This document shows, piece after piece, positions 1 to 18,000 of a stretch of DNA of 64,000 bases. A program made the position numbers. Each line of letters starts with the position of its first letter. The stretch's first letter is position 1. The DNA is taken from contig OZ241833.1 of NCBI GenBank assembly GCA_965202585.1, positions 34,286,001-34,350,000 on the forward strand, read 5' to 3'. This DNA comes from Thalia democratica (lineage: Eukaryota).

Positions 1-3000
1 AGAGGCCTTTCTGGTACAGTTAGACCTATTGTGAAAAGTTTCAGAGACTATAGTAGTGTATTGATGTACAACAAGAGCATGATATTTTCATGTTTTGACG
101 TGAAGTTTTGAAAAGTTGCAAACAAATCTAACAAATTGCCACGGAATATTCTCACAGTAGTTAAGCAGCTGTCGACTTTCTCATCTGAAATTTCGCATAT
201 TTGTTGTTACGTCATAACTGCGGCATTAAACACATGTGACGAGATGAAAATATGCGCGGAAATATTTGATGTGAATTTCATGAGTTGGTCGGCGGTGTGA
301 AAAAAAATAAGGTTTTCAAGTACAAGTTGTAAAGACTAGTTTTGTAACCAAGTATTTTAAAAACAAGTTTGATAGCTTCTAAGTTAATTGTTAAAGTGTA
401 TGTTGACTCTTTATTTGTTCAATAGCAGTTATTTTTTGTTTAATACATAAAACTCAAAAGTATATTTTTCAAATAATTGTTTCAAACTTTTTTTTTAACT
501 TCCTTTGAATAAACCATTGTAGTCAAGCTTTTTAAATTGTAAGTACACACTTTAAATTTTTAACATTTTAATATGGAATAAATAAATCTTTTAAAATTAA
601 AGTTAGAGAACAGCACTTTCAATGAAATATATGGTAAAAAATATTTTCACTTAAGTGTCTTGTAAAAAAGAGTAAATTTAAAAGTAATTTGAGCAATTAA
701 AATTCAAGAAATTTATTTTAAAATGTTTTAATTTGTAATTCAATTTGTAATTCAATTTGTAAGCAGTTAAATACTCTGTTAAACATGTATTTAGAAAAAA
801 ATTAAGTAGTTTTTAATATCTGCTTATTAAAATATGAGCATATAAACACTATTAGTTTGTTATTTTCATGCTTCAAAACTTGACTCAAAAAGCCAAGTTA
901 ACTGATTAACGTTGTTTTTTATTTTACAAGTAAGTGTCAACATAACTAACCGTTAAATGCAGCTTAGTTTACAAGCTTTTTACGCACGGAAGACATATTT
1001 CATTTCAGCACAACAAATTAAAAAAAAAGGTAACTTAATAAGTTGAGTGAAATAAAACTATTGTTTATTTTGCAACAGCTAAATTCAAAAAACTAACCAT
1101 CAGACACAGTTTAGTGCCAATTTTTTTCCTCACAAAAAACAACTTATTTTACTTTAGCACAACTGTCTGTTTGCTGTGCGGTAATTCTGGATATCCTAAA
1201 AAGTGTTTACACACGTGCACTCGTACACATGTGCACACAAATCACTTCAGCTGTTGAAGAATTATCTTACACTGTGTAAGTACGTTGGGGATTCAAATGG
1301 AAAAAATACAACAAAATGTATTTTGTTTGATTTTGCAGGTTTTTACAGATTTTTGAATTTTGAGTTTTCAAATGCTTTGACTCCGAGAATCGATTAGATT
1401 TGTTCGGATAACTCTATATATATACTTTTAAATTTAGTTGGAATAAAAAAATTCTTCAAACTGCTAGTTGTTTTACATACAAACGGTTTTACTAGTGTGT
1501 TCCTTTTTGGACAAGTTTAAGAAGTTGAACGTTGAAAAAGCTATTTATTGTTCATAACCATTGTTTGTTATATCTCAAAGTTTGTTTTACAAAATGCTAC
1601 TATACCATCATGGTGTAACCATAACTCAGATTATTTTAATTATAGAATAACTTACTTAGCCTTATAACAAACTAAAAAAGAACAAACCTAAAAGTGCTTT
1701 CTAATACTTATGACAATTATAATAATATTAACGATAAAGTTCTTAGTTATGTTCGTAATATTGTAATATTTTTATGTTACAGTTATATGTTAGTTAAGCT
1801 AAAAACAAAGCAAGAAATGATAAACGCAAATAAACTTTTTAAAAAGCCTTTACCGGTCGTAAATGCGCTATTCATCAAAGCACAGAACAAACATCAGACT
1901 TTTCAATCAGCAGCGCAACAAATCATTTAAGGCGACTTGTGAGAAATTTTCCCTTTGTTTGCTTCGTCAGGTGCGCTGGCGACTTCAAGTCTGCTCAATG
2001 CACGTGCAACCTCGAGAAAATTGAAAAAAAAAAAAATTAAGAGATGAAATACGAGATAGCGGGTGGTAATTGGGTGGGATAATGTGAAGAAACAACTCTG
2101 AGAGCTTGGAAGGAAAAAAAAAGGCAGTTTGTCGCGCATATAAGCGGAGCTGAGCTGCAAAAAATTATTACTTCAAAGTCTGCAGCGGCAAGCACACAAG
2201 CTAAAAACTCAAAATGGTAAAAGCAAGCAAAATAGTATCTTCCAGCGAAAACAAAATCAGCAAAAACTCTTTGGCCATCAAAAAGAACGACGATTTGAAA
2301 GTGAAGGAGACGCTTTCGAAGCTGCAAAATATCCTGCCAAAATGCTGCGATCAAAACATCCTGCCAAAGTGTGGCGATGAAGAGGACCAGCTTGAAATAA
2401 TTCAGCAGGCCATCTACTACATCCGGGACTTGAGCGAGTTGCTGAATAAACCTCAGATCTCAGGAATGAAAAAGATCAGTAATCAGAACATCGTGTCTTC
2501 TCCAGTGTGAAATGCAGAATAACTTACAAGGTAAATATTTTATTTTAGATATTAAAAAGTTTAAACTATATACTAAACTTCTTGCGAGGTAAATATTTAT
2601 TTGTTTCACACGTTTTGAGTTGATAGTCAAAAAAGATATCAGCTTTTGATATATTTGTTAAAATATACTTAAGGTTTAATCTGTTTTTAACGTAAAAGTT
2701 AACAAAATATAGTTTAATAAAACATAAAAGTTATTTAAAACTGTATCATTCAAATGATTAGATGTTAAATGAAACACTAAAAATACACTTAATTAAGAAA
2801 CAAGTCACTTATGATGTACAATTTTTCAGATAAACGGAACAAACTTTGCAACTTTCACAAACTTGCCAGATGGAGCAACCGAAGTTTCGACAAGTTTTTT
2901 CAGCAGCTATGACGTCAAAAACAGCGTAATAAGAAAGTTGTTCGCCGAGTGGAAGCTAGCGCGGAATGAAAACTGAATAAAAATATATGAATTGTTTTTT

Positions 3001-15000: not shown

Positions 15001-18000
15001 GCTGCTACAGACTTTGAAGTAATAATTTTTTCTTGGCCCTGCTCCGCTTATATGCGCGACAAACCGCCTTTTTTACTTCCAAGCTCTCAGAGTTGTTTCT
15101 TTACATTATCCCACCCAATTACCACCCGCTATCTCGTATTTCATCTTTTTTAATTTTTTTTTCAATTTTCTCGAGGTTGCACGTGCATCGAGCAGACTTG
15201 AAGTCGCCAGCGCACCTGATTTGCAAGCAAACAATGAAGATTTTCAATGAAGATTTCTCCAGACTGGCTGGCGCCCCGCACCTGCAGCGAAAAGCGAAGA
15301 TTTTTTTTTGGTGAGAAAAATTTTCGCAGCCAGACTTGAAGTCGCCAGTGCTCTAAACGCGAAAATGATTTGCTGCAGAAATGAAAATTAATTTTTGCAA
15401 CATTTTTTGCAGCTCCGATTGCCTTGTGCTGCAAAACTAAATATTATAAATATTTATTAATATTATTAATATTTAATTGTTAAAATATAATCAAAAATTT
15501 TATAAGAAAAAAAAGTATATCGGTTATTTTTAAAAACTTACTAGTTAACCCTAAAAAATCAATACAAAGAAAAACTTATTTTTGCAGCTCCTACACTGTT
15601 TTGTGCTGCAAAGTTGAAAGTTGATTTTGAAAACTTTTCTGATTTAAAAATCATTTGAAAGAGAAAAATTTGAGATTTTTTTCTAAATTTATAAGTTAAT
15701 CAATTTTTGAAAAAAAAACGTTTTGTAATCGAAATTTTCTTGCAAGTTAGACGTTTAAAACAAATTATAACTATTTTTAAGCTTGTTAGTCAACCCTTCG
15801 TATATTTCCGACATAAACTAAAATTTCTGGTTCTAAAATTTTTATCTCGACTAAAGTTAGTTTTTATAAGACTTATGTAACTTATAGACTTGAAAACACT
15901 AAACCAGTTGTCAGATATATTTAAAAAACGTTCAACTAAAAAATGTTACATCAACTTTTAACAATCCATTATTAGCTTTGAGCTTTAACTTTTTATTTTT
16001 CTGTATTAAATATACATAAAATTAAATATACAAAATTTTACTTTTAAAGCAGTAATTATAGGTTGAGCTAATATAATTTTTGTTAAAATGTTTGTTTAAG
16101 CACAATGGTTAAAAATATTTTTTTTTATGTTCTAAGTAGTTTTAGAATATTTATAGAAAACTATGTATTTTGATTAAAAAATAATTTAATAAACAGCTAA
16201 ATTTTAGTTTTTTTGTACTTTCAAATACTTGCTAGCTTAAACAAATGTGTTTCATAAGTCACGATTAATTTACTTTATACTAGTAAACTTGTAAGAGTTT
16301 ACTAGTATAAAGTTGCAACAGTTGTAAAAACTTGCAACAGTAGTAAAAACTTATTGAAAAATCGTTTTGTAGATTAACTGAACTAATTAAACAATATTTG
16401 GTTAGTTTTTTTAAATTTTTAATAATTAACCAGTTTTGTTCAAATAACACTCATAGCGAAAATGAAGCATACACGTTTCACAATTCAAACAATTAGCAAG
16501 TGTATACAAAAAACTACGATGCTTTTGTAACTAATTTTTATTTTTTTAAAAACATCTTAATTGTTAATTATAGTGAGAAAACTATAAAATATCGTGAACA
16601 AACCATTTTGAGCACCTTAAGTAGTTTGTACACTCTTTTGAAGAAAACAAATATTATAAATGATATTATAAATACTAAAAATAAGTTTAGTGGTTATTCG
16701 TGCGGTAAGCACTTGTTTTGAAAATATATTTTATTTGCGCAACTTTTATCGTAAGTTAAGTGTTAACGAAAACAACAGTTTTTACGCGTTAAAAATAAGT
16801 TTTGTGGTTTAGCTTAGTAAATAATATGTTTTCAAAATAAACTTTTGTTTGTATGATTTAGTCGTAATCCTTAGTAGGTTGTTTTTTCTTGCAAAGCTAA
16901 CATTTACTATTATTTTACAATACAATAAATACTATTTTCTATTACCTCTTTTAACTGTGTTTAATCTGTGCTTAATTCAAAAAAAATTATTATTTTATAA
17001 CTATGCCATAATATCAATAATAAATTAATCTAGTAAATATGCAGTTTTACACAGAAATAGTAGTTTTTTCAGCTAATATATTTTAATTCCGATAAAGTTC
17101 TGAATGCTGTAAAACGTTTTCTTTCACTTGTAACAAAACACTTGAAAAAAGATTTCAACTTATTACCAAAAAAAGCTTTAAAAATTGTTTTAAAAGATCC
17201 AATACTTCAGAATGTTTTCTGTACACTAAAAAAAACTTTAATTCATTTTCTTGCAACTTACCTTGCACTGCAATACGACTGAAAAGTTAGCTAAGAAAAT
17301 GTTTATAATTTTAATTAAGAAAGTGTTAAAACATTAGACACGAAAACCATCAACAGAAATTAAAGACTAAAACATATTCTGCAATGCTTTTCAAAAAAAA
17401 AACACTAAAAAGTGTATAAAACCCTCAAACTTATTTTATCGCTGACAGCTTTGTAATTCACGCTGAAAAAATATTCATATTAAAAAAAATACGTCAAAAT
17501 AAAACTTTTCACAGCTTAAGCGTTCTCACAACGTCGCCCAGATGGAAAGAGTCGCCATGGCAACGTTCTTCCCACACGTTTCCATGGCAACCGACACGAC
17601 ATGAAAGGGGCCGGACCAGATGCGAGGTGACCACGCGACCCAGCCCTGGCAACCCTGGCGACAACTGCTTACCATGGCAACCGAAAGTCGCAACAAACCG
17701 GTGTTTTGTACGGATCCCGCTGTGCATATTTATTTGCTTACGTCACAATGACTGTGACATCACCGCGAGCGGTATGAGAAAGGGAGCTGGATTCGCATTG
17801 GTAAACAGCTGCTTGTTTGCACTAGTGACGTACATCGTATAAATTTTGCCACAAAGTTCGGCTGAGCCAGGGCAGCTTGTGCAAGTCGGGGGTTTTTCTA
17901 GAAAAAGTTGCTCGCACTTTATAACAAAAACCTTCCGCGGCCGCATTTGTTTAAAGTGCAAAATACTATTCTAAAGCAACGAGATGAATAAAAAGCAGTA

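What the first reader, a model, noticed from the sequence alone, without database searches (positions are those of the whole stretch)
1967..15219. Id-1/Id-2 inverted pair: near-identical promoter and exons but unalignable introns
Seen: the two genes converge about 12 kb apart. The CDS differs at 9 of 297 nt, with a ~140-nt perfectly identical run. The proximal promoter and 3' exon align, but the introns (299 vs 252 bp) and flanks do not. Inference: an old duplication kept homogeneous by arm-to-arm gene conversion. A recent duplication or uncollapsed haplotype would retain intron similarity.
Basis: partly seen in the sequence, partly recalled or inferred. Interest (0 to 1): 0.68.

Follow-up and report, generated by a model that had tools for sequence, protein, structure and literature searches.

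The report
Inverted Id-like gene pair, patchy identity
Two small Id-like helix-loop-helix genes face each other 12 kb apart with near-identical promoters and coding exons but unrelated intron interiors, a patchwork best explained by DNA copying between them, and they sit in a larger gene cluster full of BMP-response-type motifs.

Summary
Gene A (+, CDS 2214-2510) and gene B (-, CDS 14976-14680) converge. They differ at 9 of 297 coding bases, with a 141-nt identical run. The introns are 299 and 252 nt.

- **Aligned parts:** promoter plus 5'UTR aligns at 94% and exon 2 at 90%.
- **Unaligned parts:** the intron interior scores like unrelated DNA, with 24 of 400 GC-matched real segments scoring as well. 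Only the last 50 intron bases align, at 78%.
- **Age mismatch:** simulation puts the intron interior at K of about 0.6 or more, against dS 0.09 in the CDS.

This favours interlocus gene conversion after an older inverted duplication (confidence 0.55). A roughly 1-kb younger duplication with intron turnover is not excluded, because the flanks give no age. No sister-species DNA was available.

The pair is not isolated. There is a third paralogue C (48389-48156), an orphan promoter copy (24413-24633) and a possible divergent HLH ORF. B's upstream module matches C's at 147 of 149 nt, although their CDSs differ at 40 of 216.

The shared promoter module carries ID-type Smad composite motifs (GRCGNC-N5-GTCTG). 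There are 17 in the window against 0.00 expected.

This is a known kind of phenomenon; interest is moderate.

The parts
1955..2213 (+). Gene A promoter and 5'UTR. It holds E-box CAGGTG 1968-1973, Smad-type composite GGCGAC-TTCAA-GTCTG 1978-1993, CACGTG 2001-2006 and a TATAAG box 2139-2144.
   Evidence: Aligns to B 15234-14977 at 94% of ungapped columns, z 27.8. Motif positions come and from the sequence.
2214..2510 (+). Gene A coding sequence: a single coding exon of 98 aa plus TGA, encoding an Id-like HLH protein without a basic region. It contains an in-frame 27-nt tandem duplication at 2325-2378.
2531..2829 (+). Gene A intron (299 nt), lying 20 nt after the stop codon and therefore in the 3'UTR under this model. 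Donor AAG|GTAAAT, acceptor TTTTTCAG|A.
   Evidence: Sequence. The interior is at background similarity to B and the last 50 nt are 78% identical. There is no RNA evidence.
2830..2983 (+). Gene A exon 2, presumed 3'UTR. AATAAA lies at 2976-2981. It also carries a 48-codon frame that is open from the acceptor.
   Evidence: 89.8% identical to B 14408-14262. Frames are shown. No true homologue of the peptide was found.
14680..14976 (-). Gene B coding sequence (98 aa plus TGA).
   Evidence: 9 of 297 differences from A.
14409..14660 (-). Gene B intron (252 nt).
14255..14408 (-). Gene B exon 2.
14977..15348 (-). Gene B promoter plus upstream module, with three Smad-type composites (15193-15208, 15260-15275, 15331-15346). 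Two of them have CAGGTG 3-4 nt upstream.
   Evidence: Segment 15161-15309 matches C's upstream at 147 of 149 nt.
48156..48389 (-). Third paralogue C: CDS of 77 aa plus TGA. It has a different N-terminus and a short C-terminus ending in APV.
   Evidence: tblastn inside the window, sequence, Pfam HLH 16.9 bits, dS to A 0.44 and to B 0.40.
48559..48988 (-). Upstream module of C, with four Smad-type composites (48591, 48658, 48762, 48973).
24413..24633 (+). Orphan copy (D) of the promoter module with three Smad-type composites. No Id-like CDS follows it.
5602..5716 (-). R element copy 1, between A and B. It is a ~125-nt block carrying CAGGTG plus GGCGCC-TACAA-GTCTG.
9435..9549 (-). R element copy 2, between A and B.
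10698..10713 (-). Single-copy ID-type composite GGCGCC-CTGAT-GTCTG with CAGGTG upstream, inside a GC-rich island (10501-11000) between A and B.

Best explanation
A and B are two members of a local family of small Id-class helix-loop-helix genes (HLH without a DNA-binding basic region). They lie tail to tail, 12 kb apart.

Their similarity is a patchwork, not one duplicated block. One patch of about 580 nt covers the promoter, 5'UTR, the whole CDS and the splice donor. A second patch of about 205 nt covers the last 50 nt of the intron and exon 2. Both sit in DNA that otherwise aligns no better than unrelated sequence.

The most likely history is an older inverted duplication of the gene. It was followed by one or more non-allelic (interlocus) gene-conversion events whose tracts were confined to the parts that selection had kept similar enough to pair. 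Purifying selection acted throughout on the HLH and on the Smad/E-box promoter module.

Shown here: the patchwork, the at least sixfold gap between coding/promoter divergence and intron-interior divergence, the heterogeneity of divergence among sub-blocks, and the existence of further family members that share sharply bounded near-identical modules.

Inferred: that conversion produced these patterns, the direction and number of events, and that the promoter module is BMP-responsive.
For: 1. **Divergence gap.** CDS pS is 0.085, dS 0.09 and dN 0.017. Promoter plus 5'UTR is 94% identical. The intron interior (2540-2779 against 14651-14459) has a global alignment score of 6. That score was reached in 0 of 200 simulations at each K from 0.1 to 0.4, in 5% at K = 0.6 and in 27.5% at K = 0.8.
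2. **Synonymous sites are not frozen in this family.** A-C dS is 0.44 and B-C dS is 0.40, so selection on silent sites does not explain A-B.
3. **Mosaic of ages.** Differences per column are 0/141 (2242-2382), 4/128 (2383-2510), 2/43 (5'UTR) and 3/81 (exon 2, 3' half). Against these stand 5/28 (CDS 5' end), 4/29 (post-stop), 11/50 (intron end) and 12/66 (exon 2, 5' half). Pooled, this is 9/393 against 32/173, Fisher P = 9e-11, with the partition chosen post hoc. Synonymous differences in codons 11-98 are 3, against 9.6 expected at the neighbours' rate, P = 0.014.
4. **The same signature elsewhere in the locus.** B and C share 147 of 149 nt upstream, with identity collapsing at both edges, although their CDSs differ at 40 of 216 aligned sites (Fisher P = 5e-8). 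Three R elements of about 125 nt are 98-100% identical with sharp edges.
5. **Mosaic relatives.** Among 10 family proteins, both N-terminal types occur with both C-terminal types, so all four combinations exist. The linked core sites LAI/LSI and NDD/NDE cut across paralogue types.
6. **No transposon explanation seen.** The introns and flanks match no other repeat in the window, so no inserted element explains the intron difference.
Against: - No sister-species or population DNA could be examined, so concerted evolution in the strict sense is untested.
- The age argument rests on one short intron interior, which a few large indels could have replaced.
- The flanks carry no dating information. 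75 of 400 and 77 of 400 real control segments align as well as the true flanks, so the duplicated unit may simply have been about 1 kb.
- The 141-nt identical run is only P = 0.028.
- The low/moderate block partition was made after looking at the data.
- Part of the promoter identity may be constraint on binding sites.
- The mosaic relatives are unnamed records on 500-1085-nt contigs and could be chimeric assemblies of similar paralogues.
- A Fisher test on the promoter module was invalid, because MAFFT misplaced a 3-nt indel in A. It is not used.
Confidence: 0.55

Rival explanations
1. A fairly young duplication of only about 1 kb, from the promoter to the poly(A) signal, inserted in inverted orientation. 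The flanks were never homologous. The intron interior was later replaced by a few large insertions and deletions in AT-rich DNA. The low-divergence parts are simply the constrained parts. No conversion is needed.
For: - The homology ends at the AATAAA (2976-2981) and begins about 215 nt upstream of the TATA box.
- The flanks align no better than real control segments: 75/400 and 77/400.
- Several sub-blocks sit at a coherent 18-22% divergence, which could be the true age.
- The intron ends are still alignable.
Against: - At K = 0.2 the interior should score about 123 +/- 19. The observed score is 6.
- No block of 80% identity or better survives in the interior.
- No inserted repeat was detected, though only 64 kb could be searched.
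- Silent sites in codons 11-98 are less diverged than the 18.5% neighbours (3 against 9.6 expected, P = 0.014).
- The presumably non-coding 3' half of exon 2 is at 3.7% without any RNA-structure signal (z -0.12 and -0.36).
Confidence: 0.22
2. An old duplication with no sequence exchange. Exons and promoter have stayed alike purely through purifying selection, including selection on silent sites (codon use, mRNA features, overlapping regulatory code).
For: - The promoter holds recognisable binding-site syntax: an E-box plus a Smad composite with exact 5-nt spacing.
- dN/dS is about 0.19.
- CDS GC is 43% against 21% in the intron.
Against: - Silent sites do diverge in the same family: A-C pS 0.335 and B-C pS 0.312, against A-B pS 0.085.
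- Spacers between motifs and the 5'UTR are also near-identical.
- 147 of 149 nt are identical between the B and C modules, with abrupt edges. That is more than binding sites would require. The orphan copy D tolerates 3-7% change.
Confidence: 0.1
3. Assembly artefact: the two copies are alleles or a mis-joined duplicate of one gene.
For: The coding sequences are very similar.
Against: - The copies are inverted and 12 kb apart in a stretch without any N.
- They have different intron lengths, different flanks and different upstream modules.
- A third, clearly distinct paralogue lies in the same window.
Confidence: 0.03

Closest known systems
Ciona robusta Id.a / Id.b (group D HLH genes)
   Same: Two Id genes on one chromosome in opposite orientations, separated by about 9 kb that holds unrelated gene models (PMC7693978, passages read). 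Here there are two Id-like genes in opposite orientation about 12 kb apart.
   Different: That review states Ciona robusta has only two group D genes. This window holds at least three clear paralogues, an orphan promoter and a possible fourth HLH ORF. The review mentions a possible rearrangement, not conversion. I cannot say what organism the window comes from, and orthology was not tested.
Interlocus gene conversion between adjacent or inverted paralogues (C. elegans hsp16 inverted modules, col-12/col-13; Drosophila hsp70 pairs)
   Same: High identity in coding and promoter modules beside completely diverged flanks was the classic argument for conversion in these cases. [quoted passage not shown]
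   Different: In those cases species trees confirmed that paralogues group by species, which is untested here. In several C. elegans cases the short introns were converted too, whereas here the intron interior is excluded.
Sex-chromosome palindromes with arm-to-arm gene conversion
   Same: Inverted repeats around a unique spacer, with exchange between the arms (10.1101/800185, PMC8600007 and PMC8981503: search listing and abstracts only).
   Different: Those arms are over 10 kb long and over 99% identical along their whole length. Here the 'arms' are two patches of about 580 and 205 nt at 90-97%, with unrelated DNA between and around them. This defining feature is not met.
ID-type BMP response element (GGCGCC-N5-GTCTG) of vertebrate ID1/2/3, Xenopus id3 BRE, and the Drosophila brk silencer element GRCGNC(N)5GTCTG
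   Same: Exact matches to the composite with the critical 5-nt spacer lie in the promoters of B, C and D (GGCGCC-AGCCA-GTCTG) and A (GGCGAC-TTCAA-GTCTG). There are 17 in 64 kb against 0.00 expected. Motif definitions come from PMC3738585, PMC11907993 and PMC3439458, passages read in each.
   Different: Binding and BMP responsiveness are untested here. 12 of the 17 sites carry a CAGGTG E-box 3-7 nt upstream. I did not see this coupling described in the passages I read.

Membership tests
Id / Emc (group D HLH proteins) | Helix-loop-helix dimerisation domain | tested here: inconclusive
   - Pfam HLH PF00010 scores 14.2, 15.5 and 16.9 bits for A, B and C, below the 20.7-bit cut-off.
- A profile of 10 family members against PDB gave 12 sequences at E up to 10. 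The best four are ID-1 (three entries, E 0.081-0.11) and ID-2 (E 0.13), and ID-3 scores E 0.6. Unrelated proteins (T4 RegA, designed TPRs) have similar E-values.
- The Atlas nearest clusters are HLH, ID-4 and ID1 at 0.88-0.89, below the 0.9 lead threshold.
- The AF2 model has helices at 24-40 and 56-77 but pLDDT of only 59. Foldseek found 0 PDB matches.
Id / Emc (group D HLH proteins) | No basic DNA-binding region before helix 1 | tested here: met
   The Pfam match starts at profile position 16 of 53, so the basic part is unmatched. Residues 1-70 of A contain no arginine (sequence). That bHLH basic regions need conserved Arg and Glu residues is recalled, not tested.
Id / Emc (group D HLH proteins) | Heterodimerises with and inhibits class A/B bHLH factors | not testable with these tools
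   No partner is known. No complex prediction was attempted.
Interlocus gene conversion / concerted evolution | Adjacent segments of one paralogue pair with incompatible divergence levels and sharp boundaries | tested here: met
   for A-B. for B-C (147/149 against 176/216 identical).
Interlocus gene conversion / concerted evolution | Paralogues group by species, not by orthologue, in converted segments | not testable with these tools
   Only unnamed protein relatives were available.
Interlocus gene conversion / concerted evolution | Significant clustering of differences (identical tracts longer than chance) | tested here: inconclusive
   P = 0.028 for a run of 141 nt or more within the CDS. 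The stronger block-level heterogeneity test used a post hoc partition.
Palindrome with arm-to-arm conversion | Long arms (kilobases) near-identical along their whole length | tested here: not met
   The homology comes in two patches totalling about 0.8 kb. The intron interior and flanks are at background.
ID-type BMP response element | GC-rich Smad1/5 site (GGCGCC / GRCGNC), exactly 5 nt, then GTCTG in the same orientation | tested here: met
   17 matches against a mean of 0.00 in 100 shuffles. 9 of the 17 are strict GGCGCC-N5-GTCTG and 8 of 17 are GGCGAC-N5-GTCTG.
ID-type BMP response element | Bound by Smad1/5-Smad4 and confers BMP responsiveness | not testable with these tools
   This needs ChIP or reporter assays.

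The most novel reading that the evidence does not exclude
The unit of concerted evolution in this locus may be a set of short modules rather than the gene pair. The modules are an E-box-plus-Smad-composite enhancer block (125-150 nt, at seven or more sites across 47 kb, copies 93-100% alike with razor-sharp edges) and the HLH exon. Under this reading they are exchanged among dispersed sites by short-tract conversion, or the enhancer block is itself mobile. The whole Id-like cluster would then keep one common BMP-response code while everything between the modules decays. Concerted evolution, or transposition, of a signalling-response enhancer would be unusual.
Probability: 0.2. Interest if true: 0.65.

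Novelty: new member of a known kind. Interest (0 to 1): 0.42.

Why it matters
If conversion is confirmed, naive dating of these paralogues from coding divergence would be wrong by a factor of six or more, and gene trees of this family would group copies by genome rather than by orthology.

The locus is also a compact natural example in which a developmental signalling target family keeps both its coding exon and its BMP-response module alike across copies: at least three Id-like genes and 17 ID-type Smad composites in 64 kb.

A has one Smad composite and B has three. That makes the pair a ready test of whether paralogues with near-identical proteins differ in signalling sensitivity.

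Tried and rejected
- **Exon 2 as coding sequence.** Both copies have a 48-codon frame that is open exactly from the acceptor in phase 0, and an upstream GT at 2505 would join it in frame.
  - The peptide has no true relative among 1.84 billion representatives. All 5 hits at E up to 0.001 are long LRR, WD40 or repeat proteins. The best, P0008, matches through 21 repeats at 37-39% identity.
  - All 7 of 7 protein relatives end at the same ...PV stop.
  - The last 81 nt have no silent differences (3 of 3 are non-synonymous in that frame).
  - I treat exon 2 as 3'UTR. The joined exon 1 plus exon 2 product was never built or searched.
- **RNA structure in the conserved 3' half of exon 2.** z is -0.12 and -0.36, so no signal.
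- **Rfam on the whole window.** 0 matches at gathering thresholds.
- **Structure route to Id membership.** The AF2 model has pLDDT 59 and Foldseek against PDB gave 0 matches, so this was uninformative.
- **NCBIfam.** Nothing relevant. It is a prokaryote-centred library.
- **Fisher test of B-A against B-C differences in the shared promoter module.** Rejected, because MAFFT misaligned A around a 3-nt indel. In the cleanly aligned 59 nt, A-B and B-C each differ about equally.
- **Polarising the A/B differences with C.** Of the 6 A/B differences in the 216 columns shared with C, C matches B at 2, matches A at 1 and matches neither at 3. This was uninformative.
- **Dinucleotide-shuffle z-scores for flanks and intron interior (1.7, 2.2, 2.6).** These looked like faint residual homology. 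They mostly vanish against real GC-matched segments (75/400, 77/400, 24/400).
- **hhalign of the divergent ORF E against the family profile.** Probability 0.75 as printed, E 0.075, so no support.
- **Literature.** A search for gene conversion + inverted duplication + Id genes + HLH found 0 papers holding at least 3 of the 4 terms. Supplementary files were not consulted.

Full report
**Scope and housekeeping**

The window is 64,000 nt with no N, 27.3% G+C and a CpG observed/expected ratio of 1.05. I do not take it for human. It looks like an AT-rich invertebrate genome, and I did not try to establish the organism.

The coding exon and the exon-2 frame were translated and searched separately. 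The joined product was never built or searched.

The DNA and taxa of related sequences therefore stayed unchecked. Supplementary files of papers were not seen.

**Checking the observation**

Gene A is on the + strand.
- ATG at 2214, TGA at 2508-2510.
- Donor AAG|GTAAAT at 2531, acceptor TTTTTCAG| ending at 2829.
- Exon 2 runs to an AATAAA at 2976-2981.

Gene B is its mirror on the - strand.
- CDS 14976-14680.
- Intron 14660-14409.
- Exon 2 from 14408 to about 14255.

The CDSs are both 297 nt and differ at 9 positions. Five differences are silent and four are replacement nucleotides, giving I7A, S10T and E57G. The spacings between differences are 5, 12, 0, 6, 0, 141, 75, 11, 26 and 12, so the identical run is 141 nt. 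The repeat finder independently reports the inverted arms 2159-2524 / 14666-15031 (366 nt, 97%) and 2779-2983 / 14255-14459 (205 nt, 87%), plus three promoter pieces.

Segment by segment, against 200 dinucleotide shuffles:

| Segment | Identity | z |
|---|---|---|
| Promoter + 5'UTR | 94% | 27.8 |
| CDS | 97% | not quoted |
| Exon 2 | 89.8% | 22.7 |
| Whole intron | not quoted | 6.0 |
| Intron, last 50 nt | 78%, ungapped | 6.9 |
| Intron without last 50 nt | not quoted | 2.6 (1 of 200) |
| Upstream 300 nt | not quoted | 1.7 |
| Downstream 300 nt | not quoted | 2.2 |

Shuffles destroy the low-complexity texture of AT-rich DNA, so I repeated the weak cases against 400 real, GC-matched segments from elsewhere in the window.
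- Intron interior: 24 of 400 score as well.
- Upstream 300 nt: 75 of 400.
- Downstream 300 nt: 77 of 400.
- The next 300 nt on either side: 202 of 400 and 299 of 400.

The two ends of the intron still align. The interior and the flanks are indistinguishable from unrelated sequence.

**What the genes are**

The 98-aa products hit Pfam HLH only below threshold: 14.2 and 15.5 bits against a cut-off of 20.7. The match starts at profile position 16, so it lacks the basic region.

A search of 5.8 billion proteins gave 7 relatives at E up to 0.01 among 10 candidates. They are 72-98 aa long, are all unnamed records, and all end at the same ...PV stop.

A profile of the 10 family members searched against PDB puts ID-1 (three entries), ID-2 and, lower down, ID-3 among its 12 weak hits. 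E-values are 0.08-0.6. Unrelated proteins have similar values, so this is a coherent lead and not proof. The protein atlas gives HLH, ID-4 and ID1 clusters at 0.88-0.89, under its 0.9 threshold.

An AlphaFold model shows helix 24-40, a loop and helix 56-77, but at pLDDT 59. Foldseek returned nothing.

'Id-like HLH without a basic region' is the best reading. Membership remains formally sub-threshold, and 'Id-1/Id-2' implies an orthology that nothing here supports.

**Independent support from the promoter**

The block shared by A and B contains CAGGTG, then GGCGAC-TTCAA-GTCTG, then CACGTG.

The pattern GRCGNC-N5-GTCTG is the published consensus of the Drosophila brinker silencer element, which is bound by Mad and Medea (PMC3738585, passages). 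GGCGCC-N5-GTCTG is called the 'ID-type' composite in SMAD1-bound regions of ID1/2/3, with the 5-bp spacing critical (PMC11907993, passages). The Xenopus id3 BRE is GACGCC-N5-GTCTG (PMC3439458, passages).

The window holds 17 matches where 100 shuffles gave a mean of 0.00.
- One upstream of A and three upstream of B.
- Three in an orphan promoter copy and four upstream of C.
- One in each of three copies of a repeated element.
- Single sites at 10698, 30110 and 32904.

Twelve of the 17 have CAGGTG starting 9-13 nt before the motif. These fall in five sequence contexts that are not copies of one another.

Id genes are canonical direct BMP targets (10.1101/787804, passages). The motif content therefore fits the Id reading, and it gives the promoter conservation a functional component.

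**The pair is part of a cluster**

In-window BLAST finds a third paralogue C at 48389-48156 (-). It is 77 aa long, has a different N-terminus and ends in a short ...LLAPV tail.

An orphan copy of the promoter module lies at 24413-24633 (+) with no Id-like CDS behind it. No further copy of exon 2 exists.

An ORF at 31742-31443 (-) scores 16.5 bits on Pfam HLH, but hhalign against the family gives no support.

B's upstream module 15161-15309 matches C's 48559-48707 at 147 of 149 nt. Identity collapses immediately beyond both ends. The B and C coding sequences differ at 40 of 216 aligned sites, Fisher P = 5e-8. B-D and C-D are 93% and 97% identical over 132 and 117 nt. A retains only the proximal part of this module.

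**How old, and what keeps A and B alike**

Nei-Gojobori estimates:

| Pair | dS | dN |
|---|---|---|
| A-B | 0.09 (pS 0.085) | 0.017 |
| A-C | 0.44 | 0.126 |
| B-C | 0.40 | 0.125 |

Silent sites in this family are therefore free to change.

I evolved the intron interior in silico with substitutions plus indels and asked how often the alignment score falls to the observed 6.
- It never did in 200 runs at each of K = 0.1, 0.2, 0.3 and 0.4. Mean scores were 174, 123, 87 and 57.
- It did in 5% of runs at K = 0.6.
- It did in 27.5% of runs at K = 0.8.

The interior is thus at least about six times more diverged than the coding and promoter patch.

Within the aligned patches the divergence is itself heterogeneous.
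- Low blocks: 0/141 (2242-2382), 4/128 (2383-2510), 2/43 (5'UTR) and 3/81 (exon 2, 3' half).
- Moderate blocks: 5/28 (CDS 5' end), 4/29 (post-stop), 11/50 (intron end) and 12/66 (exon 2, 5' half).

Pooled, this is 2.3% against 18.5%, P = 9e-11. I chose the partition after seeing the data, so that caveat stands. Silent differences in codons 11-98 number 3 where 9.6 would be expected at the neighbours' rate, P = 0.014.

The introns and flanks match nothing else in the window. No inserted repeat explains the intron difference, although 64 kb is a small sample.

The relatives add a further hint. N-terminal type (MVKASK... or MVKPQ.KSSANKENV...) and C-terminal type (long ...SSPV or short ...LLAPV) occur in all four combinations. 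The linked core states LAI/NDD versus LSI/NDE cut across paralogue types. That is what exchange among paralogues would produce. However, these are unnamed short-contig records, and chimeric assembly of near-identical paralogues would look the same.

**Verdict on mechanism**

The best-supported account (0.55) is an older inverted duplication followed by one or more interlocus gene-conversion events, with tracts limited to the stretches selection had kept pairable. These stretches are promoter to donor (about 580 nt) and intron end to poly(A) signal (about 205 nt). Purifying selection acted on the HLH and on the Smad/E-box module.

This matches the classical argument used for C. elegans hsp16, col-12/col-13 and Drosophila hsp70 pairs (PMC3966223; PMC6995229; passages read in both).

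The main rival (0.22) is a younger duplication of about 1 kb whose flanks were never homologous and whose intron interior was replaced by a few large indels. It cannot be dismissed, because the flanks give no age.

Selection alone (0.10) is contradicted by the freely diverging silent sites between A/B and C. An assembly artefact (0.03) is contradicted by the inverted, gap-free arrangement with distinct introns and upstream regions.

It is not a palindrome of the sex-chromosome kind, because long uniformly identical arms are absent.

**Comparison with what is known, and novelty**

A pair of Id genes in opposite orientation about 9 kb apart is described for Ciona robusta (PMC7693978, passage). 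Conversion between inverted or adjacent paralogues, and ID-type BMP response elements, are both textbook material.

A search for gene conversion, inverted duplication and Id/HLH together found no paper. This library lacks most subscription journals, so that is weak evidence of absence.

I rate this a new member of a known kind, with moderate interest. The more unusual possibility is that short Smad/E-box enhancer modules themselves evolve in concert, or move, across the cluster. That reading is not excluded.

Noticed in passing
window 31443-31742 (-), with flanks to 31423: A GC-rich ORF (56% G+C in a 27% genome) of 99 codons with a sub-threshold Pfam HLH match (16.5 bits). It contains 8 of the window's 12 GACGTC sites within 300 nt (window-wide expectation 2.05). 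Most are part of TGACGTCA-like CRE palindromes, and they encode repeated Asp-Val pairs. hhalign to the A/B/C family gave no support.
   Followed up: partly
window 24413-24633 (+): An orphan copy of the Id promoter module with three Smad-type composites. It is followed only by a 14-codon ORF and a GTAAAT donor, and no Id-like CDS follows within 2 kb. It could be a dead gene's promoter or an alternative first exon.
   Followed up: partly
window 5602-5716, 9435-9549 (both -) and 44695-44824 (+): Three copies of a ~125-nt element, 98-100% identical with abrupt edges and unrelated flanks. Each carries CAGGTG, then 4 nt, then GGCGCC-TACAA-GTCTG. Two copies lie between genes A and B. It is either an enhancer module or a small mobile element.
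   Followed up: partly
window 42301-42756 and 56750-57204: A second inverted repeat pair (153 nt at 97% and 268 nt at 93%), 14 kb apart, with no convincing ORF. It brackets paralogue C.
   Followed up: partly
window 2830-2976 (+) and 14408-14262 (-); GT at 2505: Exon 2 has a 48-codon frame that is open exactly from the acceptor in both copies, and an upstream GT after codon 97 would splice into it in frame. No homologue of the peptide was found, and all relatives stop at ...PV. This may be a chance open frame or an untested alternative isoform.
   Followed up: partly
window 2325-2378 (+), mirrored in gene B: An in-frame 27-nt tandem duplication (85% between units) adds QNILPKCCD to the HLH loop. 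It is present in A, B and relative P0001 and absent from C and from the other six relatives.
   Followed up: partly
window 10501-11000 and 11701-12200: Two GC-rich islands (up to 49% G+C) between A and B. They are dense in E-boxes (CAGGTG, CACCTG, CAGCTG), hold a TGACGTCA and one ID-type Smad composite, and have no Pfam-supported ORF. They are likely regulatory.
   Followed up: no
window 60290-60931 (-): An ORF of 214 aa with a C-terminal RING-H2 finger (Pfam zf-RING_2, E 6.7e-12). It is the only ORF in the window that passes a Pfam cut-off.
   Followed up: no
window 2911-2916 and 14322-14327: The most conserved half of exon 2 in both copies contains a TGACGTCA (CRE-type) palindrome. The same motif recurs at 10741 and throughout the ORF at 31.4-31.7 kb.
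   Followed up: no
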